Positions 10,732-52,941 of a stretch of 64,000 nt of DNA are shown piece after piece. The position numbers and the translations under genes were made by a program. How positions within the stretch are numbered: the stretch's first letter is position 1; each line of letters starts with the position of its first letter. Source of the stretch: Eledone cirrhosa. Lineage: Eukaryota. The notes under the pieces were generated by a model. That model had not been told where the DNA came from and did no database searches. It worked only from the letters and a program-made list of their open reading frames with translations. The stretch is taken from NCBI GenBank assembly GCA_964016885.1, contig OZ024742.1, positions 112,778,001 through 112,842,000 on the forward strand, written 5' to 3'.

Positions 10732-10808
10732 TTTGTACCGTCCTGTATTGTCCTGCACTGTCAATAATGTCTACTTTATGTAAACCCTTTGTGGTTAATA
10801 AAGAAATC
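10732..10808 (+). mobile_element. Tx1-family 3' UTR stub (extreme 5' truncation)
   Basis: Matches the last ~77 nt of the element at 17923-23838, ending AATAAAGAAATC before a degenerate (ATT)n. Confidence 0.9.
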
Positions 10809-10854
10809 ATTATTAATATTAATATTATTATTAATATTATTATTGTTGTTATTA

Positions 10855-11109
10855 CTCTTTGAGTTTCAGTCATTGATGTTAGTTAACTGGAAAGTTTGTT
10901 GAAATGAATATCAAGCCACTACCTGCAGCCTCAGATATTCAGGACGTATCGGAAGGTTCTTGCTGTTCCCAGCAAGCATGCCTTTTGAAGCGTACCTAAA
11001 AGCGTGAAGGGGCAAATTTTCTTTAACCATCCACGGAAACTTTTTGAGATAGTCCCTAGTGCGCCTATGACAATCGGGATCACTTTGACTTCATGGCAGT
11101 TCCAAATCC
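10855..11109 (-). mobile_element. Dong/R4 family A, 255-bp 3' stub
   Basis: Near identical to 11182-11436; flanked on both sides by (TTA)n. Confidence 0.92.
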
Positions 11110-11110
<1 letters not shown>

Positions 11111-11174
<64 letters not shown>

Positions 11175-11181
11175 GTTATTA
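11111..11181. repeat. (TTA)n target microsatellite
   Basis: Direct reading; lies between two Dong copies. Confidence 0.97.
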
Positions 11182-14100
11182 CTCTTTGAGTCTCAGTCCT
11201 TGATGTTAGTTAACTGGAAAGTTTGTTGAAATGAATATCAAGCCACTACCTGCAGCCTCAGATATTCAGGACGTATCGGAGGGTTCTTGCTGTTCCCAGC
11301 AAGCATGCCTTTTGTAGCGTTCCAAAAAGCGTGAAGGGGCCAATTTTCTTTAACCATCCCTGGAAACTTGTTTAGATAGTCCCTAGTGCGCCTATGACAA
11401 TCGGGATCATTTGACTTCATGGCAGTTCCAAATCCTCTTTACCTCCCACTTTAAGTCCTGGTATCGGTTAATTGTCTCCTTCTCCTTCTCTTTCACTCTC
11501 GTGTCGAATGGGCAGGCCACATCCACAATCAGGCACGATATTTTTTCTTTGTCCACAACCACAAGGTCAGGTCTATTTTGTTCCAGTTTCTTGTCCGTTT
11601 GTATCCTAAAATCCCACAGCACCTTCACCTGATTGTTTTCTATGACCGGCTCTGGCTTATGCCCATACCACTTCTCAGAATGTGGTAAATTGTTTCCTTT
11701 GCATAGGTGCCAGTGGATCACCTTGCCTATCATATCATGTCTCCAGCCCTTATAGTGAGTCTGGACTAGGTGTTTACACTCGGATACAACGTGAGCCACA
11801 GTCACCTCTCTCTCTCCACAGATCCTGCACATTGGGCTAGCCTCTTCCTTGTAAATGTGGTGTTTCAACCACTTCGTTTTGAGGGCCTGCTCCTGCGCAA
11901 CCATTAACATTCCTTCTGTAGCCTTTTTAAGGTCTCCTCTTTTCAACCAGTTCCATATCTGTGGATCTCTTAATTCAGTTTTCTCAAAGAAGGTACTATG
12001 AAGGGATTTTTCCTGAAGGCTGCTCTTCCTCCTTGATGTTATTTCCTCCTTGGACATCCCCTGGCCTATTGTTCCCTCCTTCAGTACAGTTCTGAGCATT
12101 GCTCCTTACTATCAGTCACGTATTTGTGTAGGTTGTTTTTCTCCATCTGAACACAGTCCTCTATGCTGATAAGACCTCTTCCACCCTCAGATCTCCTTGA
12201 GTAAAGTCTATCGACATCACTCATTTTTTGGAACATATTGTAGATAGTCAATAGCTTCCTAGTCTTCCTATCCATTTATTTTTGTTCAGCAACATTCCAT
12301 ATCAGAATTCCCGCACTGTACCTAATAATAGACACAGCTCGGGAATTTACTGCACTTATGGCATTGCTACTGTTCAGATCTGACTTTAATACGCTCCTTA
12401 CTCTCCGAAGGTATTCAGTTCTTATCAATTCCTTCATTTCTTTGTTCTTGATGTCATCAGCCTCCAAAACGCCCAAATACTTGTATCCTTCCTCAGAGTC
12501 AATTTCTTTTATCATCTCACCTGTTGATATCTGGATTCCGTTACTTCTGCTGAACTTACCCCTCCTCATCACAATGACTCCACACTTACTAATACCAAAT
12601 TGCATACATATATCAGTGCTGAAAATACGGACAGTGTCACAAGCACATCCAACTCCTTCTCACACTTCCCGAAGATCTTAAGATCGTCCATGAAGAGGAG
12701 GTGATTGATGGTAAGCCCTCCCTTTCCCAACCTGTATCCTGCGCTCACTTTTCGCAGTACACTGGTCAGGGACATCAGGGCAAGGACAAACAACAGAGGG
12801 GACAGACTATCTCCCTGGAAGATACCTCTCTTGATCTTCACGCTTGCCAAGGATTCTCCAGTTTGATGTTAACTCTGTTTTCCAGGACTTCATACTTGTG
12901 CCCAACAACTGCCTGATGTTTTCTGCCACCTTGAAGATCTCCAGGCTTTTGGTGATCCAAGAATGAGGCACCATGTCAAATGCCTTTTTGTAGTCTATCC
13001 ATCCCATGGCAACACCAGTGTGTCTCCTCTTGCAATTCCTCATTGCCATCTTATCAATAAGTAACTGGTCCTTTGTACCACGTGACTTCTTTCGACATCC
13101 TTTCTGTTCGTCCGGTAACAAGTTGTTTGTGTGGAGGTCATGGTAGATTTCCTCAGACATAATGCTTGTCGACAGTTTCCACATTACGGACAGACATGTG
13201 ATAGGTCTATAGTTGGTAACATCATTACCCTTGATTCGGTCTTTCATTACCAGAACTCTGATACCTTTTGTTAACCACTCTGGTATCTCACCTGCCATCA
13301 AGCAGTCATTGAACATGGTTGTCAGTTTCGGGTGGAGGGATGTTATGTTTTTAATCCAATACCCCTGCACACCATCTGGGCCAGGTGATTTCCAGTTGGT
13401 TAGTTTTTTGGCCTGCCCCTTAAGAGTTTCAACTGTGATACTTAAATCAGTTTGTTGGCATGCCTGTTCACTGATCTCCTTCTGTACTGTCTCAATCCAC
13501 ACTGCCTGGTCATTATGTTTAACATCCTGCTCCCATATTCCTCACTAGAATGTTTTAGTTTGTTCCGCCTCAGGGATCAAGTCGTTGCCTCTTTCTTTCC
13601 TTTCATGCTGTTCAACAGCATCTTCTGGTTGTTGTCGAACATGCAGTTCTGTCTATACTGGCTGACTCTGTTCACGTATCGCCTGATTTTTTGCACTCTT
13701 TGCTATAATGCGTTGCTTCAGTTCCTCTATGATAATATTTAGCTTTTTCCTCCTAGTTTTGTACTTTATTTCAAGTCTATTTTTAGTGTCTATGTTTTTA
13801 TTGTCCCATTCAATAGGGACTCAAGCTTTCCAATGTCATTTCTCATTTCCCTGATTTGACCACTCAGTCGTTTCTTCCACCAAGGCTCTGCTTTTTCTTG
13901 TCTGTTGTTTCCTCTCTCTTTTATACCAAGTTGTTTCCTCACCATATTTCCTGTTGCTTTGAGGATATTGTTGCAATGGTGAAGGCTCCTCGCCTCAAGG
14001 TATGGGATGACTTTGTTTACCTTAGCTGTTGTTTCTTTTAACTTTTTCCTGTCTACAAATCTTAGGTTCATAGGTCTCCCACTATCATTGTTCAATTCAT

Positions 14101-15026
14101 CTACCACTAAGTTTAGGATATCTACCAAATCTTGTCCTAGCCCGTCAGCATTCATCTCTTCAGTGGCCCTATCTCTGTTCCAGGTATTATTTATCTCACC
14201 ATTCAGATCATTGTCTGTTTCGGGTGGTTCCTCCGTTCTCTCGACCTCTTCACCTTCATTTCCCACTGGCTCGTTTGCCTGGCATACTCCACCCTCCATC
14301 TCCAAACTAATCCCTCTGCCCAGTTCTTCCAGATCCAGCTCGCTTATCCACCCATTAGTTCTTATTACCCGAGCCTGCCCGGCCAGTTTTTGTTCATCTA
14401 ATTTAAATGGACCAATCTCGTTCCAGATGTTATGCATCCTTTTCCTATAGCCTTTCTCCTTGGGGTTACTCTTCAGGTAACATTGCCTAACAGTTCTATT
14501 CAATTATTTCGTCCAGTTGGTTCTGGTCCCTTTCCATTTTCTTCTTCCTCCGAAAGCAGCAGTATTTGGTTGACAGCCAGGTCCCTGCTGCTGAGCCAGG
14601 GAGCACCTGTTGGCTGAGAGTCTGTCACATGACATTCTAGTCTCCATTTCACCGTTATTCGAACTGTTTAGGTTCGACATTTAAACACTTTTTCGAGGAT
14701 TGGCGAATGTATGGTTACATAACAACCGGTGAATTACTTGTCTCCGGTGGTTTCGTCACTCCACGTGACTTTTGTGTGGCTTTATCACGCTGCAGACGAA
14801 CCCAAACAAACAAACAATCAGGCAGAAAAAAACCCAAAATGAATGAGTATAGGTTTCATTGTAATGTACTGTTTGAATGTCTGACTTAATTTTTCCCTTC
14901 CCTTCTCTGTCCGTCCGTTTGTTTTTCTTTTCATTTTTATTTCCATTTACGTTTTTCGTTGTTGCTTTACTGCTTTGATTTTGATTTTTTAAAAACATTT
15001 TTTTTAAATTATTTTTAGTTATTTTT
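11182..15026 (-). mobile_element. Dong/R4-clade RLE non-LTR retrotransposon, family A, full-length but disabled (5' boundary uncertain between ~14830 and 15026)
   Basis: Single broken ORF with RT and RLE domains; ends in (TAA)n on the sense strand. Confidence 0.9.
11258..14680 (-). pseudogene. Family A RT-RLE polyprotein with several stops and frameshifts
   Basis: ATG at 14680 (MSNLNSS...); KSPGPDG, YRPITCL, DYKKAFD, FQGDSLSP, LFMDDLK, YKYLG, CRIC..H..SEC, RHD, RPDL..DVACP, ending YVLNI*. Confidence 0.9.
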
Positions 15027-15045
15027 TTATTATTATTATTATTAT

Positions 15046-17430
15046 TTGCATTTATCTTGCTTTATGTTCATACGAGTTATCACCAAGTCACAACCAGTGA
15101 CCTCAAGAGACAACAAGGTCCGCCATGTTCAAGAAAGAACATACATATTCACACATGCATCCTTAGTGTTTAGACTTGTGATGTACTTATATTGACAGGA
15201 TCTTCCTTAGTATATGGGCAGTTCCCATTAGTACTATCTTTTGTATTTCTCCTATACACCGGTTTCCTGGGATTTGCGATAAGTAGTCGTTAGACCCCTT
15301 AGGTATCATTCCCAGAGCGACTACAACCACTGGTATTGTTTTAGTTCTCAATTTCCACATTTTTCCAATTTCTATCTCCAGGTCCTTATACTTTCTCAAT
15401 TTTTCAAATGTTTTTATAGATACATTCTTGTCTATTGGAACAGATATATCAATTAGCAGGCATACCCTCCTTTGAAAGTCTTTCAATATTATATCAGGTC
15501 TATTTGCATCTATTTTTCGGTCTGTTTGGATGCTAAAGTTCCACACGATTGAGATGTGATCTTTTTCAAGTATGGGAGGTGGTTGATGCTCCCACCAATT
15601 CTTTTGATGGGGCAGGTCAAAATGCTTACACATTATCCAATGTATGTATTGTGCCGCTCTGTCATGCCTGTTTAGGTATTCGGTTGGAGCTATAGGACTG
15701 CACATTGAAATTATATGGTCAATGGTCTCTGGTTGTTTTTTGCATACACGGCATAATTGACTGCACCCATTTTTTATTATGTTGGCTTGGTAATTTTTTG
15801 TTGGCAGACACTGATCTTGTGCTAATATAATCAGTCCTTCAGTCTCCGATTTCAGTCCAGAGGATGCCAACCACTGATGGGTTAAAGTTTTGTCAACATC
15901 AGGATTGTTAGCTCGCTCTGGGTATTTTCCATACAGAGGCTTTTCTTGCCATTTCTTAGCCAGTTTTTGTAGCAGTTCTTTCTTTGCAGTTACTTTTACC
16001 TGCTTTGCTTTTTCTTTGTTTTCCATTTCAGCAGTAAATGGGACTTCTGAAATGTGTAGTCCATTACTGTATCGTTGTGCATCTTTTGTAATGGAATATG
16101 ATCTTTTGGTGCTTTCGTGTTTCAAAACGAGTTTGATCATCCAATAATGTGATTCCCTTAGATATGTGGATAATCCAATAGTTGCAGTTTTCAACGCAAT
16201 GTCTAACTGGATTAACCCACGTCTTCCTTCTTTCCTAGGGAGATATATTATATCTATGTCTGCCTTAGGGTGATGCATTCTGTGCATGGTTAAGAATTTT
16301 CGGATTTTTGTATCGAGCCTACGGATCTCTGTGCTTGACCAGTTGATGACATAGTAAATGTAGGTTACTACTGGTATGGCAAGCGTGTTTATGGCATCGA
16401 TCCTATTCCTTGCATTCAATTCCGTTCTTAAGATTGCTCTTACTCTGCGGTAACATTCCTTCCTTATCCTTTCCCTCATTGTCGAGTGCTTGATTCCATC
16501 TCCTTCACAAACACCTAGATATTTGTAAGTTTTTTCTTGATCAAGCTCTCTTATCACGTTCCCCCGATCATGATTAATGTCTGAACTCTTCAGCAGCTTT
16601 CCTCTGTGAACGTTGCTTTGGCGCATTTGTCTAGTGCAAACTCCATTTTAATGTCATCACTGAACCGCTCCACAGTGGATAATAGCCCTTGCAATTGTTC
16701 ATCATTTTTGGCAAATAGTTTCAGGTCATCCATGTAGAACAGGTGATTAATGGTTTTCTCATAGATTTTATATCCATGTTATGTTTCATTGAGCATTTTA
16801 CTTAATGATGTAAGTGCGATGCAGAATAAAAGCGGTGATAAAGAGTCAACCTGAAAAATTCCACAATTAATATTAACTTCTCCAGCTTCCAGTGATTTTG
16901 TTTCACTATTCAAAGGGAGTGTCGTTTTCCATGTCTTCATACTGAATGACAAAAATCTCCTGACAACGGGGGATATTTTGAAAATCTCTAAACATTTTTC
17001 AATACAACTGTGTGGCAAACTATTGAATGCTTTTTTACAATCTATCCAAGCAATCGATAGATTTTTGTGTCTATTATGACAATCTTCCAGTATCATTTTG
17101 TTAACCAAAAGCTGATCCTTACAGCCATATGAGCCTCGTTTACACCCTTTCTGTTCAATGGGAAATAGGTCATTTGTTATCAGGTGGTAATATGTGTATT
17201 CAGTTAGGACTGATAGTAAAATGTTATACATTGTGGTCAAGCAGGTTATCGGTCTGTAATTTTTGGGATTGTTTGTCTCATCATTCTTCGGTAGCAGGAA
17301 TGTAATGCCGTTAACTAGCCATGATGGTATCTTTTCTGGCTCCTTAACTATTTCATTGTAAAGTTTGGCTAACAGCTCATGAGACTCAGTGAAGGCATTC
17401 ATCCAAAAGTTTTGTATTTTGTCTTTTCCT
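15046..17430 (-). mobile_element. Dong/R4 family B, 5'-truncated and disabled
   Basis: ORFs 15187-16626 and 16779-17468: YRPITCL, FYMDDLK, CRVC..H..SMC, RHD, RPDI..DISVP, KLRKY; 3' end abuts (TTA)n at 15027-15045. Confidence 0.92.
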
Positions 17431-17433
17431 ATT

Positions 17434-17661
17434 TGGGAGAGGGCACTTGCCCTGGTGGTCATGGCCACTGTGGTCTTTTAATGGGCTTTCTCCACAAATG
17501 TCCCTCGGAAGTCTCCCCCCATATTGGGGAATTTTTCTTTGTTATTTTATTTCAACCTCTGTTTTTTTTACACGCAGAAATGCCCATTTGTACCGTCTTG
17601 TATTGTCCTGTACTGTCCTTATTGTCTACTTTATGTAAACCCTTGTGGTTAATAAAGAAAA

Positions 17662-17662
<1 letters not shown>
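17434..17662 (+). mobile_element. Tx1-family 3' UTR stub
   Basis: Matches 23594-23838; preceded by a single ATT and followed by (ATT)n. Confidence 0.9.
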
Positions 17663-17712
<50 letters not shown>

Positions 17713-17722
17713 AGTGCGCTTA

Positions 17723-17900
17723 CTCCACGAATGTCCCTCGGAAGTCTCCCCCGTATTAGGGAATTTTTCATTGTTATTTTTTTGTTACATCCTCTGTTTT
17801 TGTTTTTTACACGCAGAAATGCCCATTTGTACCGTCCTGTATTGTCCTGCACTGTCCTTAATGTCTAGTTTATGTAAACCCTTGTGGTTAATAAAGAAAG
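17723..17900 (+). mobile_element. Tx1-family 3' UTR stub
   Basis: Matches ~23650-23837; between (ATT)n tracts. Confidence 0.9.
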
Positions 17901-18131
17901 TATTATTATTATTATTATTATTGGCGACCTACGTAGGAAATCGTATTATCGTGAGCTCCGCAAAGGTTTGTTATTTCCGTTTGTTTAAACATTGCCATTT
18001 ATGGAAAATTTTATTGTAAACTGTTTATAAGCACACATACATTGTTTTCCGAAAAGGACACCCAAAAAGATTGGGGCCTTGTGCCCAAAATTTTAACTTT
18101 TATTATTATCCAAAAATTTCTTTGAAAAAAA

Positions 18132-19637
18132 ATGGCTAATTCCCCTCTGCACGAAGCAGCTGAAAGCCTTCCTCACAAAATAACACCTCACACCGACACC
18201 ACCATTGTAAATGTTACTACGTTTGCCAACACAAAAAAAAATATAAGCAGTAACAATATTTTAAATTTGTCTCAGGCAGACATTCATTTCCCGCCATTAC
18301 CAATGACTGCAGGTGTTAAACCCTCCACCACCACCACCACCGCGACAACCACCACCACCACCACCACCACCACCGCGACAACAGAAACAAAAGAAGAAAA
18401 AAATAAATTAACTCGTGACGTCGAAATGAAATCAAGCAAAATGGACTCTTCCCCACCAAAGACGACTGACGTCACCACCACCACAACTGAAAATAAAATT
18501 AATATCAACGATAGCAACAACAACAACAATGACATTATAAAACCGACCCTCAGTTTCGCCATCGTAGCAAAACAATTCGAAGCGTTCACGGTAACTCAAG
18601 AAGATTTAGAAAATGCCAAACAAATGGTAAAGAAAGATGGGTACAGGGTCAGCCTCCCCCCCCCACCTAATAAAATGGAGCATCGGCGCCTGTGCACCGT
18701 GTCGTATAGAACAATAAATGTAAAATCGCGCCGAGTGGAACGGGCATCCGAGTCCCAAATCCAAAAAGCTTTGGGACATGTGTGGGCAAGAAAAACCCAC
18801 ATCAGACGTGGGCAAAAGTATGGAACCGTGGATGTGTTCTTTGAAACACCAGAGGAGGCTAGAGAACACTCCATGGCCCCATTAAAAAGTGACGACCTCA
18901 CACTCGTCCCAAGCTATTGTGGCCAGAGACTCGTAAATATCAGGGTGACCCACGTTCCACCGGCCATCGAAATTCCCTGGCTAATAGCGGCTGTCCTCAC
19001 CGGCATCGAAGCCAACACGAAAATAATAGCAGTAGCAAAAGAAAAGCAGGAAAACTGGTCCGGATCTGGGATGGAGCTCCTGATCCAAGCGGACCAAAAA
19101 AGCATTGAGGAGATCCCAGAGGTAATAGACCTCACTGACGGCAGCCACCTCACGGTAATTGTCGAGGGCAGAAGACCTAGGTGTGTCGTTTGTGGTGAAG
19201 GAACCCACCTAAGGGCTTTCTGCCCTCAGGCTAGAAGGTTGAGGCCACCTCTCCTACCCACCCCAGTGACAAAACCATCAACACCACCAGTAGCAGAGAT
19301 GGCAGCAACAACTGTAGCAGCAACAACAGAAGCAACTATAACAGCAACAACCCCAGCAACAGTAGCAAAACCAACACCACTACCACCACCAGCAAAACCA
19401 ACACCACCACCACCCAACGCTTCAGAACTAGCACCAGCGCCTACACCATCCACCACACCACAACCAAAACTAACGGCTGTGGAGGATTTTCCACTCCCCG
19501 GCCTATCACAACTGGAGACAGATTGTGACGACGAGGAGTGGGAAACGATATCCGGAAAAAAAAAAGAAACCAAAAAAGAAAAAATGCTCTTCCTTCCCCC
19601 TCCAAAAACAAAATACAGAGGGAAACAAATAAACTAA
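18132..19637 (+). CDS. Tx1 ORF1 (gag-like nucleic-acid-binding protein), 501 aa
   Basis: Open frame with RRM-like segment (YGTVDVFF, VNIRVTHVP), zinc knuckle CVVCGEGTHLRAFC, Pro/Thr-rich linkers and the EEWETISGKKK motif. Confidence 0.85.
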   Translation: MANSPLHEAAESLPHKITPHTDTTIVNVTTFANTKKNISSNNILNLSQADIHFPPLPMTAGVKPSTTTTTATTTTTTTTTTATTETKEEKNKLTRDVEMKSSKMDSSPPKTTDVTTTTTENKININDSNNNNNDIIKPTLSFAIVAKQFEAFTVTQEDLENAKQMVKKDGYRVSLPPPPNKMEHRRLCTVSYRTINVKSRRVERASESQIQKALGHVWARKTHIRRGQKYGTVDVFFETPEEAREHSMAPLKSDDLTLVPSYCGQRLVNIRVTHVPPAIEIPWLIAAVLTGIEANTKIIAVAKEKQENWSGSGMELLIQADQKSIEEIPEVIDLTDGSHLTVIVEGRRPRCVVCGEGTHLRAFCPQARRLRPPLLPTPVTKPSTPPVAEMAATTVAATTEATITATTPATVAKPTPLPPPAKPTPPPPNASELAPAPTPSTTPQPKLTAVEDFPLPGLSQLETDCDDEEWETISGKKKETKKEKMLFLPPPKTKYRGKQIN

Positions 19638-20122
19638 GAAACAAAAAAGTTAGGACAGATATGCCACCATCCACACCAGCATCACCAACCCCATCAACCC
19701 AAACACCAACACCATCACCATCATCATCCCCAGCACCACCATCACCTACACCACAAAAGTCACCAAAAAGCGAAACAGAAACAAACCCACAACAAACGCA
19801 AACAAAACAAAACAACCAAAACGATACACACTACACAGCATTAAATTTGAACAACAAGCAATTATTACACTACATCAAACACAACACCAGCATCACAGAA
19901 AAAGACTACACAACAACCCCAAAATTCACACCACCTCCACACATACAAATCACTCGCATCACACAGAAAACGTACATGACACTAAAACAAAAATTCCCCA
20001 AAGACATCGGAGACTTCCGACAAGCACTCTCCAGGAGGATTTATAAGGACATCCTTCCTGGGGAGGCCACAAGCAGTGAAAAGGATGGAAAAGCCGTCCT
20101 TCCCCTACGAGAAGTAAGGTAA
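19538..20122 (+). CDS. Tx1 ORF1 C-terminal segment in the -1 frame (ORF1b; first ATG at 19660)
   Basis: Pro/Ser/Thr linker then a segment (LLHYI.HNTSITEK...LKQKFPKDIGDF) conserved in all four long copies; stops 34 nt before the ORF2 ATG. Confidence 0.6.
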   Translation: MGNDIRKKKRNQKRKNALPSPSKNKIQRETNKLRNKKVRTDMPPSTPASPTPSTQTPTPSPSSSPAPPSPTPQKSPKSETETNPQQTQTKQNNQNDTHYTALNLNNKQLLHYIKHNTSITEKDYTTTPKFTPPPHIQITRITQKTYMTLKQKFPKDIGDFRQALSRRIYKDILPGEATSSEKDGKAVLPLREVR

Positions 20123-20156
20123 GTGGTCTTTCCCATCTTTTCCACTCCTTTTCAAC

Positions 20157-23576: not shown

Positions 23577-23836
23577 ACTAAAGGTGGAAAACTGGGAGAG
23601 GGCACTTGCCTTGGTGGTCAGGGTCATTGTGGCTTTTTACTGGGCTTTCTCCACAAATGTCCCTCCGAAGTCTCCCCCCTATTGGGGAATTTTTCATTGT
23701 TATTTTCATTGTTATTTTTGTTACATCCTCTGTTTTTGTTTTTTTACACGCAGAAATGCCCATTTGTACCGTCCTGCATTGTCCTGCACTGTCCTTAATG
23801 TCTACTTTATGTAAACCCTTGTGGTTAATAAAGAAA

Positions 23837-23838
<2 letters not shown>

Positions 23839-23876
<38 letters not shown>

Positions 23877-23890
23877 TATTATTATTATTA
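23839..23890. repeat. (TTA)n target microsatellite
   Basis: Between the Tx1 3' end and the Dong B 3' end. Confidence 0.97.
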
Positions 23891-26800
23891 CAGTTGGATT
23901 TATCTTGCTTTATCTTCATACGAGTTATCACCAAGTCACAACCAGTGACCTCAACAGACAACAAGGTCCGCCATGTTCAAGAAAGAACATACATACTCAC
24001 ACATGCATCTTTAGTGTTTAGACTTGTGATGTACTTATATTGACAGAATCTTCCTTAGTATATGGGCAGTTCCCATTAGTACTATCTTTTCTATTTCTCC
24101 TATACGCGGGTTTCCTGGGATTTGCGATAAGTAATCATTAGACCCCTTATGTATCATTCCCAGAGCGCCTACAACCACTGGTATTGTTTTAGTTCTCAAT
24201 TTCCACATATTTCTAATTTCTATCTCCATGTCCTTATACTTGCTCGATTTTTCAAAATGTTTTTATAGATACATTCTTGTCTATTGGAACGGACATATCA
24301 ATTATCAGGCAGACCCTCTTTTTAAAGTCCTTCGATATTATATCAGGTCTGTTTGCATCTATTTTTCGGTCTGTTTGGATGCTAACGTTCCACAAGATTG
24401 AGATGTGATCTTTTTCAAGTATGGGAGGTGGTTGATGCTCCCACCAATTCTTTTGATGGGGCAGGTCAATATGCTTACACATTATCCAATGTATGTATTG
24501 TGCAGCTCTGTCATGCCTGTTTAGGTATTCGGTTGGAGCTATAGGACTGCACATTGAAATGATATGGTCAATGGTCTCTGTTTGTTTTTTGAATAAAGAG
24601 GTATAATGGGCTGCATCCATTTTTTATTATGTTGGCTTGGTAATATTTTGTTGGCAGACACTGACCTTGTGTTGATATAATCAGTCCTTCAGTCTCCGAT
24701 TTCAGTCCAGAGGATGCCAACCACTGATGGGTTAAAGTTTTGTCAACATCAGGATTGTTAGCTCGCTCTGGGTATTTTCCATACAGAGGCTTTTCTTGCC
24801 ATTGCTTAGCCAGTTTCTGTAGCAGTTCGTTCTCTGCAGTTACTTTTACCTGCTTTGCTTTGTCTGTGTTTTCCATTTCAGCTGTAAATGGGACTTCTGA
24901 AATTTGTAGTCCATTACTGTATCTTTGTGCATATTTTGTAATGGAATATGATCTTTTGATGCATTCGTGTTTCAAAACGAGTTTGATCATCCAATCATGT
25001 GATTCCCTTAGATATGTAGATAATCCAATTGTTGCAGTTTTCAACGCAATGTCTAACTGGATTAACCCACGTCCTACTTCTTTCCTAGAGAGATATATTC
25101 TATCTATATCTGCCTTAGGGTGATGCATTCTGTGCATGGTTAAGAGTTTTCGAATTTTTGTATCGAGCCTACGGATCTCTGTGCTTGACCAGTTGATGAC
25201 ATTGTAACTGTAGGTTACTACTGGTATGGCAAGCGTGTTTATGGCATCGGTCCTATTCTTTGAATTCAATTCCGTTCTTAAGATTGCTCTTACTCTGCGG
25301 TAACATTCCTTCCTTATCCTTTCCCTCATTGTCGAGTGCTTGATTCCGTCTCCTTCACAAACACCTAGATATTTGTAAGTTTTTTCTTGATCAAGTTCTC
25401 TTATCACGTTCCCCCGATCAAGATTAATGTCTGAACTCTTCAGCAGCTTTCCTCTGTGAACGTTGCTTTGGCGCATTTGTCTAGTGCAAACTCCATTTTA
25501 ATGTCATCACTGAACCGCTCCACAGTGGATAATAGCCCTTGCAATTGTTCATCATTTTTGGCAAATAGTTTCAGGTCATCCATGTAGAACAGGTGATTAA
25601 TGGTTTTCTCATAGATTTTATATCCATGTTATGTTTCATTGAGCATTTTACTTAATGATGTAAGTGCGATGCAGAATAAAAGCGGTGATAAAGAGTCAAC
25701 CTGAAAAATTCCACAATTAATATTAACTTCTCCAGCTTCCAGTGATTTTGTTTCACTATTCAAAGGGAGTGTCGTTTTCCATGTCTTCATACTGAATGAC
25801 AAAAATCTCCTGACAACGGGGGATATTTTGAAAATCTCTAAACATTTTTCAATACAACTGTGTGGCAAACTATTGAATGCTTTTTTACAATCTATCCAAG
25901 CAATCGATAGATTTTTGTGTCTATTATGACAATCTTCCAGTATCATTTTGTTAACCAGAAGCTGATCCTTATAGCCATATGAGCCTCGTTTACACCCTTT
26001 CTGCTCAATGGGAAATAAGTCATTTGTTATCAGGTGGTCATATGTGTATTCAGTTAGTACTGATGTTAAAATTTTATACATTGTGGTCAAGCAAGTTATC
26101 AGTCTGTAATTTTTGGGATTGTTTGTCTCATCATTCTTCGGAATCAGGAATGTAATGCCGTTAACTAGCCATGATGGTATATTTTCTGGCTCCTTAACTA
26201 TTTCATTGTAAAGTTGGGCTAACAGCTCATGAGACTCTGCGAAGGCATTTATCCAAAAGTTTTGTATATTGTCTTTTCCTGAGGATTTCCATTTGCTGGT
26301 TTTTCTTAGAGCCAAGCGCAACTGTTCAACTGTTATATTTTCCCATATTTGTTCCTCAAGGTGAGCTGTATCTTTCATTTGTCTGTCTATCCATGGGGCA
26401 TGTATGCTATGAACTTTTTCTTCGGCTCAGATCTCTTCCCAGAATTCTTGCACTTCCTCCTTGGGTGGTATTGACTTAGCAGTTATTGTTGACTTACCAA
26501 TTTTTCTGTAGAAGTTTCTTTGGTTGTTTTTGAACATATTATTGTCCTTATAGAATCTTGATCGTTTTTCAAAGCGCCTTATACGAGCAGCTTTGGCCGA
26601 CACTTTTTGTTTGATTATTTCTATCAGCATGTCTATGTCACTTGTTGATTTTATTCTGTACTTTTTTTTCAATTTTCTAAGTATAGTTTGTTTAACATGT
26701 TCACCTACTTTATAGTTTGTTAACATTTCTATATCAGATCGGAGAAGGTTTATTTGGCGGTTGATGTTCTCTTGCCAAGTAGATTTCTTGTGGGAATTCC

Positions 26801-27846
26801 TTTGTTTTTTCATCTTCACTCCACATAAGTGAGTGGTGACTTTAGCCGATGCATAATAGAGATGATTTAAATCAGTAATGTTTAGTTTGTTTGTGATGAT
26901 AATGTTTTTGAGAATTATGTTAGTCTTGTGTATTATCTTTTGGTTCTGTTTGGAGTTCTGGATCTTAGGGTGGGTGTCTCGTTGCCCGATGTCAGATTCT
27001 TTCATTTTCATCCATTCGATCATAATTTCCTCCTTCAAGTTGGCAAATTCATTCTCATTCATTTCTTTATCATTTACGATCTCATTATTTTCCTTTGGAG
27101 TTTCATCTTGAGCATGCACTCCCTCCACTTTTTCGATCCTTTCTTTAATTTGTTCTGTTGCCAATGATTCCGCCCCAACCCTGGGATTCGAAGTGTTACA
27201 ATTTACCTCTTTTTCACTGACACATGTTTCATTTTCCCTTCGCTGACTTTGTGCTAATAGCTTGATCTGATCAATTTCTATATCAGTTAGTAACATTTTT
27301 CTTACAATATTTCTTCGTATATTGGCTAGTTTGTTGCTGTCAATATAGCCTCTGTTTTCGGGATGTTTCTTTTTCCAGTTGATATATGTCTGTTCTGTAT
27401 TCGATGTATTTGATGGGTAGTACATGGCAGTGTAGAAAGCCTCAAGGACATCTTTATTATCTTCCCTTGACCATTTTTCTCTCTCTTTCTTTGGATTTCT
27501 TGGTGGTGAGCATGGAGTGCCAACAGTAGGAGTATTCCGGTTATGGGAGGTCTCCAGCTCCGAAGTGATGGGAAGGTTTGAACCATTAGCTGATTTTTCG
27601 ACCCCAGTCTGGTTCCTCTCTGAGTGAAGCGGCCCTTTTTTACCCGGGTGACGGCCGATCCGGTATGATATTTTATCATTAGACATTTACTTTATTTTGT
27701 TGCGTTTTATCCTTATCCGCCAAGGGGTAATCATTTCGTGTTACCACTTTTAGAACGAGTGTCAACCAAGACTAGAGGGGTCGTTCTCCCCTAGAGACAC
27801 GGCTATTCCCCGCCGGCCGCCATCCCGGTATTTCTTGGTCACGGGG

Positions 27847-27848
<2 letters not shown>
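23891..27848 (-). mobile_element. Dong/R4 family B, full-length, disabled
   Basis: ~160-nt leader, ATG at 27686, ORF pieces 26427-27686, 25629-26378, 24568-25476, 24252-24620, 24035-24229; (TAA)n on both sides. Confidence 0.93.
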
Positions 27849-27883
<35 letters not shown>

Positions 27884-30800
27884 GGCGATCTACTTAGTAA
27901 ATCGTATTATCGTGAGCTCCGCAAAGATTTGTTATTCTCAGTTGTTTAAAAATGCCATTATTGGAAAATATTTATGGTTAAATTTATATAAGTGCACATA
28001 CATTGTTTTCTGAAAAGGACACTCAAAAAGATTGGGGCCTTGAGCCCAAAATTTAAACTTTCATAATTATTAAACAAAAGAAAAATGTCTTTGAAAAATC
28101 ATGGCCGACTCACAGCTGAACCCAGTAGCTGAGAGCCTTCGTCACAAACAAACACCTCACACCGACACCACCATTGTAAATATTACTACGTTTGCCAACA
28201 CTAAAAATATAAGCAGTAGCAATATTTAAATTTGTCTCAGGCAGACATTCATTTGCCGCCATTATCAATGACTGCAGGTGTTGAAGCCGCCACCCACCAC
28301 CACCACCACAGCGACAACAGAACCAAAAGGAAGACATAAATTATCTCGTGATATCGAAACGACTTCAGCCAAAATATACTCTTCCACACCAAGATAATCG
28401 AAATAGCGAAAGAAAAGCAGAAGAACAGGTCCGGATCTGGGATGGAGCTCCTGATCCAAGCGGACTAAAAAAGCATTGAGGAGATCCCAGAGGTAATAGA
28501 CCTCACTGACGGCAGCCACCTCACCGTAATCGTCGAGGGAAGAAGGCCTAGGTGTGTCGTTTGTGGTGAAGGAACCCACCTAATGGCTTTCTGCCCTCCG
28601 GCTAACAGGTTGAGGCCACCTCCCTTACCCACCCCAGTGAGTCAACCATCAACACCACCAGCAGCATAAATGGCAGCAACAACTATAGCAGCAACAACAG
28701 TATCAACTGGAACAGCAACAAAACCCAGCAACAGAAGCCAAACCAACACCACCACCACCCAACGCCCCAGAACTAGCACCAGCGCCTACACCATCCATCA
28801 CGCCACAACCAAAACCAACGCCTGTGGAGGATTTTCCACTCCCTGACCTATCACAATTGGAGACAGATTGTTACGACGAGGAGTGGGAAACGGTATCAGG
28901 AAATGAGAAAAAAAGAAACCCAAAAAGAAAAATTCTCTTCCCTCCCCCTCCAAAAACAAAATACAGAAGGTAACAAATAAACTATCAAACAAAAAAGTTA
29001 GGACAGATATGCCACCATCCACACCAGCCTCACCAACCCCATCACCACAAACACCAACACCATCACCATCATTAACCCCAACACCACCATCACCAACACC
29101 ACAAAAGTCACCAAAAAGCGTAACAGAAACAAACCCACAACAAACGCAAACAAAACAAAACAACCAAAACGATACACACTACACAGCATTACATTTGAAC
29201 AACAACCAATTATTACACTACATCCAACACAACACCAGCATCACAGAAAAAAACTACACAACAACCCAAAAGTTTACACCACCTCCACACATACAAATCA
29301 CTGGCATCACACAGAAAACGTACACGACACTAAAACAAAAATTCCCCAAAGACATCGGAGACTTCCGACAAACACTCTGCAGGAGGATTTATAAGGACAT
29401 CCTTCCAGAGGAGGCCACTACATCTATGTTTAGTGCCCTCAGGTCACTAAACATAGATGTAGTGGCCATCAGCGAGATCAAAATCTCCGAGGCACTGGCC
29501 GTCTCACCGATCTTCGGAGGCTACGATGTGTACGCATCTCCCAGCCGTCTGGAATCAGAGGGGGGGGGGGTCGCTGTGCTTTTTCGGGGAGGTTTTGATC
29601 TTGGCATACGGGCCATCTTCCCGAACCCAGAAGGTAAGTTGGTTGAGCTAGACATGACCAGCGGCGACGAGCAAGCCTTCAGTCTAGTGGCCGTCTATGC
29701 CCCGACAGGAGCAGGGCGGCCTGATTTCTGCCGGCGTCTGGAGACCTTTTTTGGAACGTCCCGCTCTTTAGTGTTAGTGGGCGACTGGAACGGGATCTTA
29801 GATGCTCGCTGGGACTGTGTGGGATTAGCGGATAGGGGTGGAGGGTGCAAGAGCCTCACCAACCTGCTCAGGCGTTTTGAACTGTCTGACAGGTACCGAT
29901 TGGATTTCACGAACGTGCCAATGTGGACTTGGACAAATCGCATAGTGTCATCCAGATCATATCTAGATAGAGTATTTTGTAGGGAAATAGATAGGTCTAG
30001 CATAGGCTGTCCACAATTCAAGATTAGTCAGCTACGCGGACCACAAATTCGGGATCTGTGTGCTTGACGTAGATAGGCTTCATAGACAAGGACCTGGTAC
30101 TGGAAGCTAAACGCGTCCTTACCAGCGCGCAAGGCCTACAGAGACAGGATTAGCAAACTAGTTAAGCGGGCATTGACGGGGGCCATCGTCAACAATAAGT
30201 GGTGGTTTGCTCTGAAAAGAGCAATTGAACAGAGTCCATTAGGTTTAGTAAGGCTTTAGCAATATAGAAAAATAGAACAGAGGGAGAATTAGTTAGAACA
30301 TTAGGCGAGGCGCTTAGCAAAGGCATCGCGACCGACGTACTTGCGGCGAAATTGGCCCTTGACCAATTCTTCAATGCAAATCACGAAGGCTGCGTTGTCA
30401 GAGCTAGGGTGCGTGCTCTCAGACACGAGGGAACGAAAACCGTTGAATGGGCCCGAGTGGCGGAGGCGCGTCGTGGCAACAAAGCCACTATCCGTTCTTT
30501 GGTGGTCCACGATGGGCACATGCTACTCGATCCCGGGAAAATATGTGAAGCTTTTCAGCGACAATTCGCTCAGTTTTTCGGGGGAAGCGGCGGGCCGGAT
30601 CGAGGGATGGACTTTAATGTCTACCTTTACGGACTGCCTCGGCTCTCGGCCACTGAGGCGGTGTGTTGCGAAAAGCCGATAACAGCCGCTGAAGTACGGG
30701 AAGCAATGACTAGCTGCACAAGGGGTGAATCGCCTGGTTTGGATGGTCTACCCTATGACCTTTACGGACAGCTGCCAGACTTGTTCGGAGGCCTCTTGGC

Positions 30801-32868
30801 GGACGTCTACTGCAACTGGCAACATAACGAGAGAATTTCCAGCTCTGTGAGCCGAGGAGCTGTGGCGCTGCTGAGAAAGCATCCGAATAAGGATGATAAC
30901 ATAGATAATTTTAGGCCCATAAATTTTCTAAACACAGAGTTCAAGATTTTGGCCAAAGAGGTTGGCGTTTGTCGTTGGTGGTCTGGTGGGAGAGGCGCAA
31001 CCTTCACCTCATCGATACATCGTAGAGAGGTTAGCTAAGGGAACCTGGGCGGGTGGGTCCTTGATCAATTTAGATCAGTCGAAAGCTTTCGATAGGGTCG
31101 ACCATCGTTACTTAGCCGTAGTCCTGAGTGCGGCTGGCTTTGGCCCGTCTTCAGAGGCTGGATCGCTGCCATGCACAGCACATCTGCTCTGTGGTGAGAG
31201 TGAACGGTCACCTTTCGGAACCGTTCAACATCATGCGCTCGGTCCGCGAAGGATGTCCTCTCTCGTCCCTCTTGTACGTATTGACTCTCGAGCCATTACT
31301 GCACAAACTGGAGACGTTGAGGGGGGGTCCCGCGCGAACTAGGATACGGAAGATCCGTGTCAGCATATGCGGACGTTGTCACCGTAGTGGTGTCGAACGC
31401 CAAACACATCGAGGCGATCCGCACTACACTAAGAGAATACGGTGGCAGGAGCAAAGATCAACCAGGAAATGTCAGTGGGCCTGCGCTCGGCACCTGGAGA
31501 GGCAGTTCCATGCCTTCCAATAGCGTGTCGGGCGCTGGACGGGCGGACCAGTTAAATTGTCTGGTTCGGTCCGGATCTCCAGACGGACAAATACTGGGAC
31601 GACGTACGAGCAGGGTGGCTTCTTTCATCCAGAAATGGGCGGAGAGGAAGCTATCCCTGAAAGGTCGAGCGGAGATTGCTAACGCGTATATCGCGTCCGT
31701 CATCTACAACCGCCTGACCGTCGTACCTTGTCCTAAGACCCGCCTGACTGTGCTGGAGCGTTTTCTCTTTCGCTTTTTGTGGAAGGGACGCGCTCCGATG
31801 GTCAGGCGATCCATCTGCTGTCAACAGCTGCTACGTGGAGGGCTGGGAATGCCGTGGCTGATGATGCGTAGACACGCGCTCAGGCTACAACATCTCCACC
31901 TCATTCTCGACGGTGATAAGGTGTGGTCTCCGTTTGCTAGACGCGTCTTTCCCCAGCTCGTCTCCTTGACGGAGCTGCAGTCCTGGGTCAAGCGAAGACC
32001 GAGCGCTTGGAGACTGGAATGTCTTCAGGCACACAGCCCTCAACCAATCGAGCAACGTGATCGGTGGAAAATCAACTAGCCAATCTCTTCGGAGGAACTT
32101 TCGGGCCGGGCCTCTGGACAACTTCCAGAAATCCCTGGCCTGGCAGTGCTACCGCGGAGCTGTGCCAGTTCGGGATAAACTCTACAGGAATGGAGGTGCC
32201 GTCAGCCGGGCATTTAAGAGATGCGCGCAGGGCGACGAAACCGTCCTGCATGCAATCGTCAGTGTCCGAGCATTGCTGACTTGTGGGCTTATGTCGAACA
32301 CCGTGTAGGACTGATCCAGCTATCAGCTGGGTCCATCGTGAGGATTTCCCCGCCCTCTTCCTTTAGTCGGGAAGGGCAGGCAGTTTTTATCTGCCTGGTG
32401 GCCATGGCGAAAGAGATAGTATGGTGGACACGTTCGAAAGGGCTGAAGACGAGCACTTACCTCTTCGGTGATGCCCTGATTAACTTTTTCAAATTTCATT
32501 TTAAAGGAAAATCAGAGTAGAGAGGGAAGTGTTCTCTTCCCCCCACTTTGTTGAAAGATGGGTGAGAGAAGCAAGAATGGCCCGATTGAATGGGCCTACT
32601 CTGAGTATGTGTCTGTAAATTAAAGGTGGAAAACTGGGAGAGGGCACTTGCCTTGGTGGTCAGAGTCATTGTGGCTTTTTAATGGGCTTTCTCCACGAAT
32701 GTCCCTCGGAAGTCTCCCCCCTATTGGGGAATTTTTTCATTGTTCTATTATTACATCCTCTGTATCTTGTTTTTTGCACTCAGAAATGCCCATTTGTTCC
32801 GCCCTGTATTGTCATGTACTGTCCTTAATGTCTACTTTATGTAAACCCTTGTGGTTAATAACGAAATC
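27884..32868 (+). mobile_element. Tx1 copy 2, both ends intact, internally deleted and frameshifted
   Basis: Collinear with 17923-23838; deletions near 28392, 29420 and 32070; (ATT)n on both sides. Confidence 0.93.
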
Positions 32869-32906
32869 ATTATTATTAGTATTATTGATATTTTTGTTAT
32901 TGTTAT

Positions 32907-32943
<37 letters not shown>

Positions 32944-32967
32944 TGTAGTAGTAGTAGCAGCAGCAGC

Positions 32968-33008
<41 letters not shown>

Positions 33009-33027
33009 CAGTAGCAGTAGCAGCAGC

Positions 33028-33071
<44 letters not shown>

Positions 33072-33090
33072 TAGTAGTTGCAGTGGTGAC
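32869..33090. repeat. Compound (TTA)n to (GTA)n/(GCA)n microsatellite
   Basis: Direct reading. Confidence 0.95.

Positions 33091-51620: not shown

Positions 51621-51659
<39 letters not shown>

Positions 51660-52900: not shown

Positions 52901-52941
<41 letters not shown>

What the first reader, a model, noticed from the sequence alone, without database searches (positions are those of the whole stretch)
10732..32900. 22-kb array of three LINE families stacked in one microsatellite with strict opposite polarity
Seen: the order is Tx1 stub(+), DongA stub(-), DongA(-), DongB(-), Tx1 stub(+), Tx1 stub(+), Tx1(+), DongB(-), Tx1(+), separated almost only by (TTA)n (one spacer is a single ATT at 17431-33). 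Dong always reads along the TAA strand and Tx1 along the TTA strand. The rule also holds at 48322-55699 and, mirrored, at 55787-64000. Inference: one ancestral microsatellite acted as a self-renewing landing pad, with RLE and APE enzymes nicking opposite strands. The resulting convergent and divergent pairs could generate antisense RNA against each other, like a piRNA-cluster trap.
Basis: partly seen in the sequence, partly recalled or inferred. Interest (0 to 1): 0.75.

Follow-up and report, generated by a model that had tools for sequence, protein, structure and literature searches.

The report
Opposite-strand LINE nest in (TTA)n repeats
Two retrotransposon families with a restriction-like endonuclease and one with an AP-type endonuclease lie stacked in TTA/TAA repeats with fixed, opposite orientations, here and at hundreds of other places in this 3-Gb animal genome; this likely reflects each enzyme priming on its own strand of the same microsatellite, a striking but largely explicable extension of known site-specific LINEs.

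Summary
C (APE+RT, L1/Tx1-like) is always on +. A and B (RT+CCHC+restriction-like endonuclease, Dong-like) are always on -.

Sampled 3' ends are followed by family-specific tails: C by (ATT)n in 26 of 30, A by (AAT)n in 30 of 30, B by (AAT)n in 30 of 30. Full-length C 5' ends are preceded by (ATT)n in one phase in 30 of 30. Neighbours across a tract obey the polarity rule at 72 of 73 distinct junctions.

Whole-genome junction patterns give 259 C/A tail-to-tail pairs and 137 C-C tandems. Forbidden forms are nearly absent: one C/C locus, one A/A locus, and no A-then-C on one strand.

The best explanation is strand-specific, target-primed insertion into (TTA)n·(TAA)n, with each insertion adding a new tract. 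28 of 30 random long tracts touch an element end. Opposite-strand nicking is inferred, not shown. The piRNA-trap idea is untested.

(TAA)n targeting by Dong is known. A Tx1-like lineage on the complementary strand was not found in the papers I could search. Verdict: new variant of a known kind, moderate interest.

The parts
10732..10805 (+). C (Tx1-like) 3' stub, 74 nt, ending ..GGTTAATAAAGAAATC
10806..11109 (-). A (Dong-like) 3' stub with an imperfect shared tail tract (10806-10857); tail-to-tail with the C stub
11110..11185 (.). (TAT)n tract between the A stub and A
11124..14989 (-). A, near full length (about 45-70 nt short at the 5' end); RT + CCHC + RLE; ORF broken
14990..15045 (.). decayed (ATT)n tract, the tail of B
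15046..17430 (-). B (second Dong-like family), 5'-truncated at ref 1591; its 486-aa ORF holds the CCHC and RPD..D..K motifs
17431..17433 (.). single ATT between the 5' ends of B(-) and a C stub(+)
17434..17711 (+). C 3' stub plus (ATT)16 tail
17715..17922 (+). C 3' stub plus (ATT)7 tail
17923..23838 (+). C full length (5' end GGCGACCTACGTAG); ORF1 18126-19637; ORF2 20322-23576 (APE, RT, zf-RVT; N-terminal ~70 aa out of frame)
23839..23890 (.). (ATT)17 tract shared tail-to-tail by C(+) and B(-)
23891..27848 (-). B, nearly full length (about 22 nt short at the 5' end); candidate HDV-like fold at its 5' end (27740-27848)
27849..27883 (.). (TTA)11 tract between the 5' ends of B(-) and C(+)
27884..32906 (+). 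C copy with internal deletions and a decayed tail
32907..33078 (.). (AGT)57 microsatellite at the right edge of the array
48301..51671 (-). A (5'-truncated at ref 557) plus (ATT)17
51792..52941 (-). B 3' 1.1 kb plus a (TTA)14 tract
52920..55699 (+). C 5' part only (ref 7-2863); the 3' half is missing
55700..55785 (.). 71-nt B(-) scrap ending in an 18-nt perfect palindrome; polarity flips here
55787..58927 (+). A (ref 390-3842) with a decayed (AAT)n tail
58927..59037 (-). piece of the short (ATT)n-tailed family E, tail-to-tail with A(+)
59038..61704 (-). C part (ref 3016 to 278); 3' half missing
61702..64000 (+). two A copies in tandem (61702-62966 and 62963-64000) joined by (AAT)16; the array continues about 18 kb beyond the window

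Best explanation
[quoted passage not shown] SHOWN: family C has an AP-type endonuclease, RT and a C-terminal zinc knuckle. Its sense strand ends ..GGTTAATAAAGAAA-NN-(ATT)n, and its 5' end is joined to (ATT)n in one phase. SHOWN: families A and B share 36% aa identity. Both have RT, a CCHC knuckle and a PD-(D/E)xK motif, and A's modelled C-terminal half (B was not modelled) has an R2-like fold. Their sense strands end in (AAT)n. SHOWN: 5'-truncated copies abut tracts at arbitrary internal positions, so the tract is the target and not part of the transcript. INFERRED from target-primed reverse transcription: C's RNA tail (AUU)n would anneal to a nicked TAA strand, and A/B's (AAU)n tail to a nicked TTA strand. 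On any one tract the two classes must therefore face opposite ways. INFERRED: each insertion leaves a tract on both sides and adds its own tail, so targets multiply and nests grow. Later fold-backs, inversions and deletions would account for the polarity flips and the 3'-truncated copies.
For: Domains: Pfam APE, RVT_1 and zf-RVT in C ORF2. C's best solved relative is LINE-1 ORF2p at 2e-49, with the match running into the N-terminal (APE) region. A and B carry CCHC plus RPD..D..K. A relative of A best matches R2 proteins at 1.7e-29. The model of A's C-terminal half (pLDDT about 90 over residues 180-572) has R2 proteins as its top 7 fold hits, E 1e-17 to 6e-13, against LINE-1 ORF2p at about 3e-3. 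Abundance by exact end motifs: C 3' 6459, C 5' 2278, A 3' 3227, B 3' 3227. Tails in the first-30 samples: C 26 of 30 (ATT)n, A 30 of 30 (AAT)n, B 30 of 30 (AAT)n. C 5' ends are preceded by ..ATTATT|GGCG in 30 of 30. Neighbours across the tract: 79 of 120 samples were identifiable and 78 obey; after removing 6 junctions sampled from both sides, 72 of 73 obey. Whole-genome patterns with a 10-40 nt tract: C->tract<-A 259, C->tract->C 137, C->tract<-C 1 locus, A->tract<-A 1 locus, A->tract->C 0. Both homo-polar exceptions are terminal fold-back scraps of about 40 nt. In the C5 set all 5 A(-) and all 6 B(-) neighbours lie against the tract, most broken at internal points (A refs 2221, 1522, 2641, 3716; B refs 1662, 1504, 3375, 2279), the rest near their 5' ends. 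Of 30 random (ATT)>=8 tracts (24535 in the genome), 28 touch a recognised element end with the expected polarity. Literature passages read: Dong targets (TAA)n in insects, molluscs and cnidarians and has RT plus a REL-endonuclease (PMC3812793; PMC7998251). Tx1-clade elements are target-specific, including for microsatellites (PMC4494074). TRAS and SART insert in opposite orientation into one telomeric repeat (PMC10088271).
Against: No enzyme activity or nick position was measured, so the strand assignment rests on the TPRT model. No empty site or insertion polymorphism was seen. No relative's genome was available, and the short-read contigs laid are not locus-specific. The left edge of the array has no tract. 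Some junctions are not insertions: the palindromic joint at 55746-55785, 3'-truncated C copies, and an inverted C piece beyond the window. One sampled junction (L078) breaks the rule. The A stub and the adjacent A copy form a 327-bp, 1.9-copy tandem repeat at 94% identity, which could be a local duplication rather than two insertions. Clade names were not tested by phylogeny.
Confidence: 0.85

Rival explanations
1. The array grew mainly by local DNA-level duplication (unequal crossing-over or replication slippage between tracts and repeats), not by repeated insertion. The polarity would then be inherited from a few founder insertions.
For: TRF reports 10809-11435 as a 327-bp unit in 1.9 copies at 94% identity, and 17485-17922 as a 239-bp unit in 1.9 copies at 89%. 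Many C/A junctions genome-wide share one form, NN+(ATT)5+GTT, in about 17 of the 100 listed. Fold-back joints show that DNA-level rearrangement does occur in these nests.
Against: Members of supposed duplicate units differ in identity (B/B 95.5%, C/C about 90%) and in truncation points. Neighbours across tracts vary across 73 independent loci. 5'-truncated copies with their own tails are the hallmark of separate TPRT events. Junctions with the modal tract length carry different C-subfamily dinucleotides (GC, AC, TC, GT, AT), so they are not copies of one locus.
Confidence: 0.1
2. The array is an assembly artefact: repeats were mis-joined across microsatellites.
For: High-copy families (thousands of copies) and microsatellites are hard to assemble. 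No long reads were available, and the one contig seen at the left edge reaches only 29 nt into the C stub.
Against: The same architecture recurs at hundreds of loci with different partners and tract lengths. The window has no N. Copies within the array are 80-95% alike and so are distinguishable. A contig of 2595 nt with 0 differences from a run with the same species label covers 10640-10760.
Confidence: 0.02
3. The nest functions as a small-RNA (piRNA-type) source. Read-through across convergent and divergent pairs would give antisense RNA of each family. This is the first reader's functional idea, and it is not exclusive of the insertion model.
For: Geometry only: C(+) faces A/B(-) tail-to-tail at 259+ loci. 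Bombyx Dong is processed from a co-transcript by a 5' ribozyme (PMC3774820 passages). B's 5' end admits an HDV-like nested pseudoknot that 2 of 300 shuffles match. If real, B RNA would be made by read-through from upstream, which in this array is antisense C.
Against: No RNA evidence of any kind was examined. The pseudoknot descriptor was written after seeing the sequence. Rfam finds no ribozyme.
Confidence: 0.1

Closest known systems
Dong (R4/Dong clade; Bombyx mori, Anopheles, Biomphalaria, ostracods, cnidarians)
   Same: RT followed by a restriction-like endonuclease; insertion into (TAA)n with the sense strand reading TAA; tail of the same repeat (passages in PMC3812793, PMC7998251, PMC3774820). 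A and B show all of these.
   Different: Two families with only 36% aa identity coexist, with thousands of copies each, mostly in mixed nests with an unrelated APE lineage. RT phylogeny, the N-terminal Myb/SANT-like domain and the 5' ribozyme were not established here.
Microsatellite-specific Tx1-clade LINEs (Kibi on (TC)n, Koshi on (TTC)n, crocodilian Tx1 on (TTCC)n/(TTTC)n)
   Same: APE-RT-zinc-knuckle ORF2 of the L1/Tx1 type; strict insertion into one microsatellite; frequent tandem insertions (PMC4494074 passages and section 15). C shows APE+RT+zf-RVT and 30 of 30 5' junctions in (ATT)n.
   Different: The target is (TTA)n, which none of the passages I read lists. The tail is (ATT)n, not poly(A). 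It shares its target duplex with an RLE lineage on the other strand. Figure 3 and the supplementary figures of PMC4494074, Kojima & Fujiwara 2004 (not held) and Repbase could list such a family, and I could not see them.
TRAS and SART in (TTAGG)n telomeric repeats of Bombyx mori
   Same: Two LINE families insert into the same simple repeat in opposite orientation and build mixed arrays (PMC10088271 passage).
   Different: TRAS and SART belong to one clade (R1 per the passage; that both use APE-type endonucleases is recalled, not from a call), and their target is made by telomerase. Here the two classes use unrelated endonucleases, and the target is interstitial and is regenerated by the elements' own tails.
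R1 and R2 in 28S rDNA
   Same: An APE-type and an RLE-type LINE share one multicopy target (recalled; not read in a call).
   Different: They use different sites 74 bp apart and the same orientation as the rRNA gene (recalled). The target is a host gene, not a repeat made by the elements.

Membership tests
R4/Dong clade (families A and B) | RT followed by a C-terminal CCHC knuckle and a PD-(D/E)xK restriction-like endonuclease in one ORF | tested here: met
   Motifs CRICGx6VxHIVSxC..RPDLVVVD..IVDVACP..K in A, and the same in B. Relatives are single ORFs of about 1130 aa. R2 proteins are the best sequence and fold matches. Weak HSDR_N_2 hit, E 0.0036, below cut-off.
R4/Dong clade (families A and B) | Insertion into (TAA)n with the sense strand along TAA | tested here: met
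   30 of 30 A and 30 of 30 B 3' ends are followed by (AAT)n. Truncated 5' ends abut the tract. Full-length 5' ends lie next to (AAT)n in L095 and L106.
R4/Dong clade (families A and B) | RT phylogeny groups with Dong/R4 and not with R2, NeSL, CRE or HERO | not testable with these tools
   No named reference sequences could be fetched, and all 120 listed relatives lack an informative name (one is labelled only 'hypothetical protein').
R4/Dong clade (families A and B) | HDV-like self-cleaving ribozyme at the 5' end (shown for Bombyx Dong and Ascaris R4; PMC3774820) | tested here: inconclusive
   No Rfam hit at the gathering score or at E<=10. B's 5' end admits the nested double pseudoknot, matched by 2 of 300 shuffles, but the descriptor is post hoc. 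Nothing comparable was seen in A's AT-rich 5' end.
R4/Dong clade (families A and B) | N-terminal Myb/SANT-like domain without zinc fingers (PMC7998251) | not tested
   Pfam at E<=1 on a full-length relative shows no N-terminal domain. No profile-profile library was on hand.
Tx1 clade (family C) | Two ORFs; ORF2 with N-terminal APE, RT and a C-terminal zinc knuckle | tested here: met
   Exo_endo_phos, RVT_1 and zf-RVT. ORF1 of 503 aa lies upstream. LINE-1 ORF2p is the best solved match, 2e-49 over residues 13-800.
Tx1 clade (family C) | Sequence-specific insertion | tested here: met
   30 of 30 5' ends are joined to (ATT)n in one phase; 26 of 30 3' ends are followed by (ATT)n.
Tx1 clade (family C) | RT/EN phylogeny inside Tx1 rather than other L1-group lineages | tested here: inconclusive
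   The only hint is a coral protein automatically named 'Transposon TX1 uncharacterized 149 kDa protein', which scores 300 bits (32% id) against 171 bits for human ORF2p. No curated references were available.
piRNA cluster | Dense strand-specific or dual-strand small-RNA production in the germline | not testable with these tools
   No small-RNA or other RNA data were available to test this.

The most novel reading that the evidence does not exclude
Two unrelated LINE lineages (RLE-type Dong-like and APE-type Tx1-like) and their short non-autonomous partners form a guild that farms its own target. Every insertion by either class lays down a fresh (TTA)n·(TAA)n tract that both classes can use, one on each strand. 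The guild has therefore produced most of the about 24,500 long (TTA)n tracts in this genome and builds strand-polarised nests. In these nests the ribozyme-processed RLE elements are transcribed through antisense Tx1 copies, giving built-in antisense RNA.
Probability: 0.3. Interest if true: 0.65.

Novelty: new variant of a known kind. Interest (0 to 1): 0.45.

Why it matters
The nest gives a clean natural experiment on how endonuclease type and RNA-tail complementarity fix insertion strand. Two mechanistically different enzymes use the same trinucleotide duplex but opposite strands, and the genome-wide bookkeeping is near perfect (259 hetero-polar against 1+1 homo-polar tail-to-tail pairs). It also suggests that long (TTA)n microsatellites in this genome are largely a product of retrotransposon tails, and that unrelated elements can create targets for each other. 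That bears on microsatellite origins, on nest and cluster formation, and on the design of strand- and site-specific retrotransposon tools. None of this overturns current models. It extends known site-specific LINE biology (Dong, Kibi/Koshi, TRAS/SART).

Tried and rejected
- DNA (BLAST-type) search of the own genome with C's 3' UTR found nothing. The tool skips very common words, so I switched to exact patterns.
- The first junction pattern was over the tool's length limit. I shortened it.
- Rfam: no family at the gathering score in 9000-64000, nor in five loci holding families E and F. Nothing relevant at E<=10 at the A and B 5' ends.
- Sequencing runs: no RNA holder listed.
- The second read-laying run, on 10640-11105, showed only family-level cover. 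No piece bridged the tract, and no listed contig spanned the stretch. One contig reaches 29 nt into the C stub, short of the 31 needed to count as a bridge.
- Shares of words in other organisms' runs were small. Laying showed A's and C's 3' ends at 90-99% in three other organism labels, and I draw no habitat or host conclusion from that.
- The ESM Atlas gave only generic RT/APE clusters with no taxa.
- Earlier findings of this scan: nothing by place, words or sequence.
- Kojima & Fujiwara 2004 and Xiong & Eickbush 1993 are not held.
- I first read 14607-14991 as a foreign unit 'X'. I rejected this when BLAST showed it is contiguous A 5' UTR in L037, L083, L089 and L032.
- Covariation support for the B ribozyme candidate: copies are 96-99% alike, and the few changes are mostly disruptive, so this gives no test.
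- Literature searches for a (TTA)n/(TAA)n-specific Tx1-type element found none. Cephalopod repeat papers list Dong-R4 and L1-Tx1 as abundant and recently active, but the passages read say nothing on targets or polarity.

Full report
WHAT IS THERE

The window comes from a 3.0-Gb genome (contig C3, 112,778,001-112,842,000). Self-comparison and comparison with one reference copy per family resolve three repeat families.

- Family C is about 6.0 kb. Its ORF1 is 503 aa. Its ORF2 has Exo_endo_phos (APE), RVT_1 and zf-RVT domains.
- Family A is at least 3.9 kb and family B about 4.0 kb. Each has an RT followed by a CCHC knuckle and an RPD..D..K motif. They share 36% amino-acid identity over the C-terminal 476 residues.

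From 10732 to 32920 the order is: C stub(+), A stub(-), A(-), B(-), ATT, C stub(+), C stub(+), C(+), B(-), C(+). The spacers are (TTA)n-phase tracts of 3 to about 75 nt.

Another copy inside the window matches 20159 of 22189 nt of this stretch. The rest is A's 5' UTR, B's 5' half and a 70-nt piece of C. The first two are matched by copies elsewhere in the genome. The array therefore holds nothing but these elements and the microsatellite.

A second nest runs from 48301 to the window's end and about 18 kb beyond. It obeys the same rule up to 55699 and the mirrored rule after 55787.

ENZYME CLASSES

C's ORF2 best matches human LINE-1 ORF2p among solved structures (2e-49, residues 13-800, with the match running into the N-terminal (APE) region). 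It matches R2 proteins only at 4e-20.

A full-length relative of A (1158 aa, 69% identical) best matches R2 proteins (1.7e-29), against 3e-15 for ORF2p.

An AlphaFold model of A's C-terminal 572 residues was built on a 26-sequence alignment. Its pLDDT is about 90 over residues 180-572. Its top seven fold matches are R2 retrotransposon proteins (E 1e-17 to 6e-13, TM 0.52-0.60). ORF2p follows at about 3e-3, then small PD-(D/E)xK endonucleases.

GENOME-WIDE TEST OF THE RULE

Exact end motifs are very abundant:

| Motif | Copies |
|---|---|
| C 3' end | 6459 |
| C 5' end | 2278 |
| A 3' end | 3227 |
| B 3' end | 3227 |

For each motif I read the first 30 places along contig 1. These were not chosen on their flanks.

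- C 3' ends are followed by NN+(ATT)n in 26 of 30. The exceptions are one single ATT, one (ACT)n and two ATTATA.
- A 3' ends are followed by (AAT)n in 30 of 30.
- B 3' ends are followed by (AAT)n in 30 of 30.
- Full-length C 5' ends are preceded directly by (ATT)n, always in the phase ..ATTATT|GGCG, in 30 of 30.

The sequence beyond the tract could be assigned to A, B or C in 79 of the 120 samples, and 78 of these obey the rule. Six junctions had been sampled from both sides. That leaves 72 of 73 distinct junctions obeying, with a binomial probability of about 1e-20 under random orientation.

Whole-genome counts of two-ended patterns with a 10-40-nt tract say the same:

| Junction form | Status under the rule | Count |
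|---|---|---|
| C->tract<-A | allowed | 259 |
| C->tract->C | allowed | 137 |
| C->tract<-C | forbidden | 1 locus |
| A->tract<-A | forbidden | 1 locus |
| A->tract->C, same strand | forbidden | 0 |

Both homo-polar loci are fold-back scraps of about 40 nt at an element's end.

TARGET OR TAIL?

A tract at the 3' end could simply be the element's own tail. A tract at the 5' end of a full-length copy could have been carried in by read-through. The decisive point is that 5'-truncated copies also abut tracts.

- In the C5 set all 5 A(-) and all 6 B(-) neighbours lie against the tract. Most are broken at internal points (A refs 2221, 1522, 2641, 3716; B refs 1662, 1504, 3375, 2279) and the rest near their 5' ends.
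- In the window, the stubs at 10806-11109 and 17715-17922, and the truncated B at 51792-52900, do the same.

The elements therefore insert into pre-existing tracts.

Conversely, most tracts belong to elements. Of 24,535 left-anchored (ATT)>=8 tracts, I classified the first 30. Their immediate upstream flank was:

- the 3' end of a (+)-polar (ATT)n-tailed element in 19: C 2, a sister subfamily 3, short family E 6, short family F 8
- the broken 5' end of A(-) or B(-) in 6
- something else in 5

Their immediate downstream flank was:

- an A(-) 3' end in 9
- a B(-) 3' end in 1
- a C(+) 5' end in 2
- something else in 18

Only 2 of 30 tracts touch no recognised element.

MECHANISM (INFERRED)

In target-primed reverse transcription, the nicked DNA strand primes on the 3' end of the element's RNA. 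C's RNA ends in (AUU)n, so its primer must be the TAA strand. A's and B's RNAs end in (AAU)n, so their primer must be the TTA strand. Two classes that each use one strand of the same duplex must lie in opposite orientations on any tract. This is what is seen. The constant phase of C's 5' junction, and the whole-unit tracts in C-C and C-A junctions, suggest phase-specific cleavage. None of this was measured.

DEPARTURES FROM THE RULE

- The polarity flip at 55770-55787 lies at an 18-nt perfect palindrome that joins a 71-nt B(-) scrap to A(+).
- The C copies at 52920-55699 and 59038-61704 lack their 3' halves.
- Beyond the window there is a second flip, and an inverted C piece lies next to a C stub.
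- One sampled junction (L078) has a C(+) stub about 50 nt after an A(+) tail.

These look like later DNA-level rearrangements or fold-back events.

The A stub and the adjacent A copy form a 327-bp, 1.9-copy tandem at 94% identity, so some local duplication cannot be excluded. As the main driver it fits poorly. Identities and truncation points differ between would-be duplicate units, and partners vary among loci.

WHAT IS KNOWN

All of the following rests on passages read, not whole papers.

- Dong targets (TAA)n in Bombyx, Anopheles and Biomphalaria (PMC3812793), and in ostracods, 'most insects, mollusks and cnidarians'.
- R4/Dong elements carry RT plus a REL-endonuclease and a divergent N-terminal Myb-like domain (PMC7998251).
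- Bombyx Dong has a 5' HDV-like ribozyme that cleaves at the junction with upstream TAA repeats (PMC3774820).
- Tx1-clade elements are target-specific. Listed targets are Tx1D, U2, (TC)n, (TTC)n, (TTCC)n/(TTTC)n and several transposons (PMC4494074).
- TRAS and SART insert into the Bombyx telomeric repeat in opposite orientation (PMC10088271).

Five full-text searches found no description of an APE-type or Tx1-type element specific for (TTA)n/(TAA)n, nor of mixed Dong/Tx1 nests. Kojima & Fujiwara 2004 is not held. Repbase, and Figure 3 and the supplementary figures of PMC4494074, could not be seen and may list such a family.

Clade membership by phylogeny could not be tested. Relatives of A carry no informative name (one is labelled only 'hypothetical protein'). 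The only relevant name among C's relatives is an automatic 'Transposon TX1' label on a coral protein (32% identity, 300 bits).

SIDE RESULT

B's 5' end (27740-27848, minus strand) can form the nested double pseudoknot of HDV-like ribozymes:

- P1: CCCCGT / GCGGGG
- P2: ACCAAG / CTTGGT
- P3: CGG / CCG
- P4: within CTAGGGG..CCCCTCTAG
- J4/2: contains a C

Only 2 of 300 dinucleotide shuffles admit any such fold. I wrote the descriptor after seeing the sequence, Rfam finds nothing, and the copies are too alike for covariation. It remains a candidate only.

VERDICT

The core interpretation (shared microsatellite target, opposite strands, self-renewing tracts) is the best explanation at about 0.85. 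The strand-nicking step is inferred. The piRNA-trap function is untested.

Each ingredient has a precedent. What appears new is a Tx1-like lineage on the complementary strand of Dong's target, and the genome-scale, near-exceptionless polarity of the resulting mixed nests. I rate it a new variant of a known kind, with interest 0.45.

Noticed in passing
window 58927-59037; loci L031, L129, L131, L140, L144, L149, L152: Short family 'E', ending ..TGGCCTTGTGCCTAAAGTAGAAACA + (ATT)n. Its 3' end resembles C's, so it is possibly a SINE mobilised by C. It has the same polarity as C in 6 of 30 random tracts. One odd case is L012, where it lies reversed after a C tail. No Rfam/tRNA-type head was found.
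   Followed up: partly
loci L123, L126, L141, L142, L143, L146, L148, L150 (also upstream in L051, L052): Another (ATT)n-tailed family 'F', ending ..CCTGAGCACTGTACACAATAATTTC. It is the commonest flank of random long (ATT)n tracts (8 of 30). Not classified.
   Followed up: no
loci L039, L041, L044, L127, L145, L061, L084, L086: A sister Tx1-like subfamily with 3' end ..CCCTTGTGGCCAATAAATGAAATC + (ATT)n, about 75% identical to C in the 3' UTR. It has the same polarity rule.
   Followed up: partly
loci L092, L103, L105, L109, L070 (after the (AAT)n tails of B (L092, L103, L105, L109) and A (L070)); L032, L058 (reversed, before C): A recurrent unit starting AGGGAAGAAGACGCACGAGGTGACGGAGGTCATGAAATCGC directly after (AAT)n, in the A/B orientation. 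It is probably the 5' end of a further TAA-strand family.
   Followed up: no
window 27740-27848 (- strand); L095, L135, L075, L136, L058, L059, L070: Candidate HDV-like nested double pseudoknot at the 5' end of family B (2 of 300 shuffles match; post-hoc descriptor). Full-length copies carry about 22 nt more (AAAAAAAACAACAAAAAG) upstream of it.
   Followed up: partly
window 55746-55785: An 18-nt perfect palindrome with a 4-nt loop, exactly where the nest's polarity flips. This is a fold-back or inversion joint.
   Followed up: partly
window 32907-33078; locus L014: (AGT)57 directly continues the decayed (ATT)n tail of the last C copy. In L014 a C end is followed by (ACT)n. These may be single-base variants of the tail repeat that expanded.
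   Followed up: no
genome-wide list: C/A tail-to-tail junctions show a modal tract of NN+(ATT)5+GTT (about 17 of the 100 listed) with different NN. This may reflect a preferred minimal target length or insertion distance.
   Followed up: no
window 39315-40288: An old, diverged A-like copy (72-80% identity) on the + strand with a decayed AAT-type tail. It stands alone, outside the nests.
   Followed up: partly
window 33876-34061 and 35332-35517: 186-nt inverted repeat at 98% identity in a (TA)n-rich stretch between the nests. It may be the ends of a DNA transposon.
   Followed up: no
L153-L155 (window scale 64001-82541): The second nest continues about 18 kb past the window. It holds a full-length C(-) 95.8% identical to the window's C and a C stub 99.3% identical to it. 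It also shows a second polarity flip and a B-like family at 79-81% identity.
   Followed up: partly
L089 (1364-1457); L153-L155 (78796-79535): 5' ends of some A and C copies carry short inverted duplications of their own sequence, similar to twin-priming or fold-back products.
   Followed up: no
runs X4, X5, X8 laid on window 10640-11105: Contigs under three other organism labels hold A's 3' end, and two of them hold C's, at 90-99% identity. The families are therefore shared beyond this species label.
   Followed up: partly
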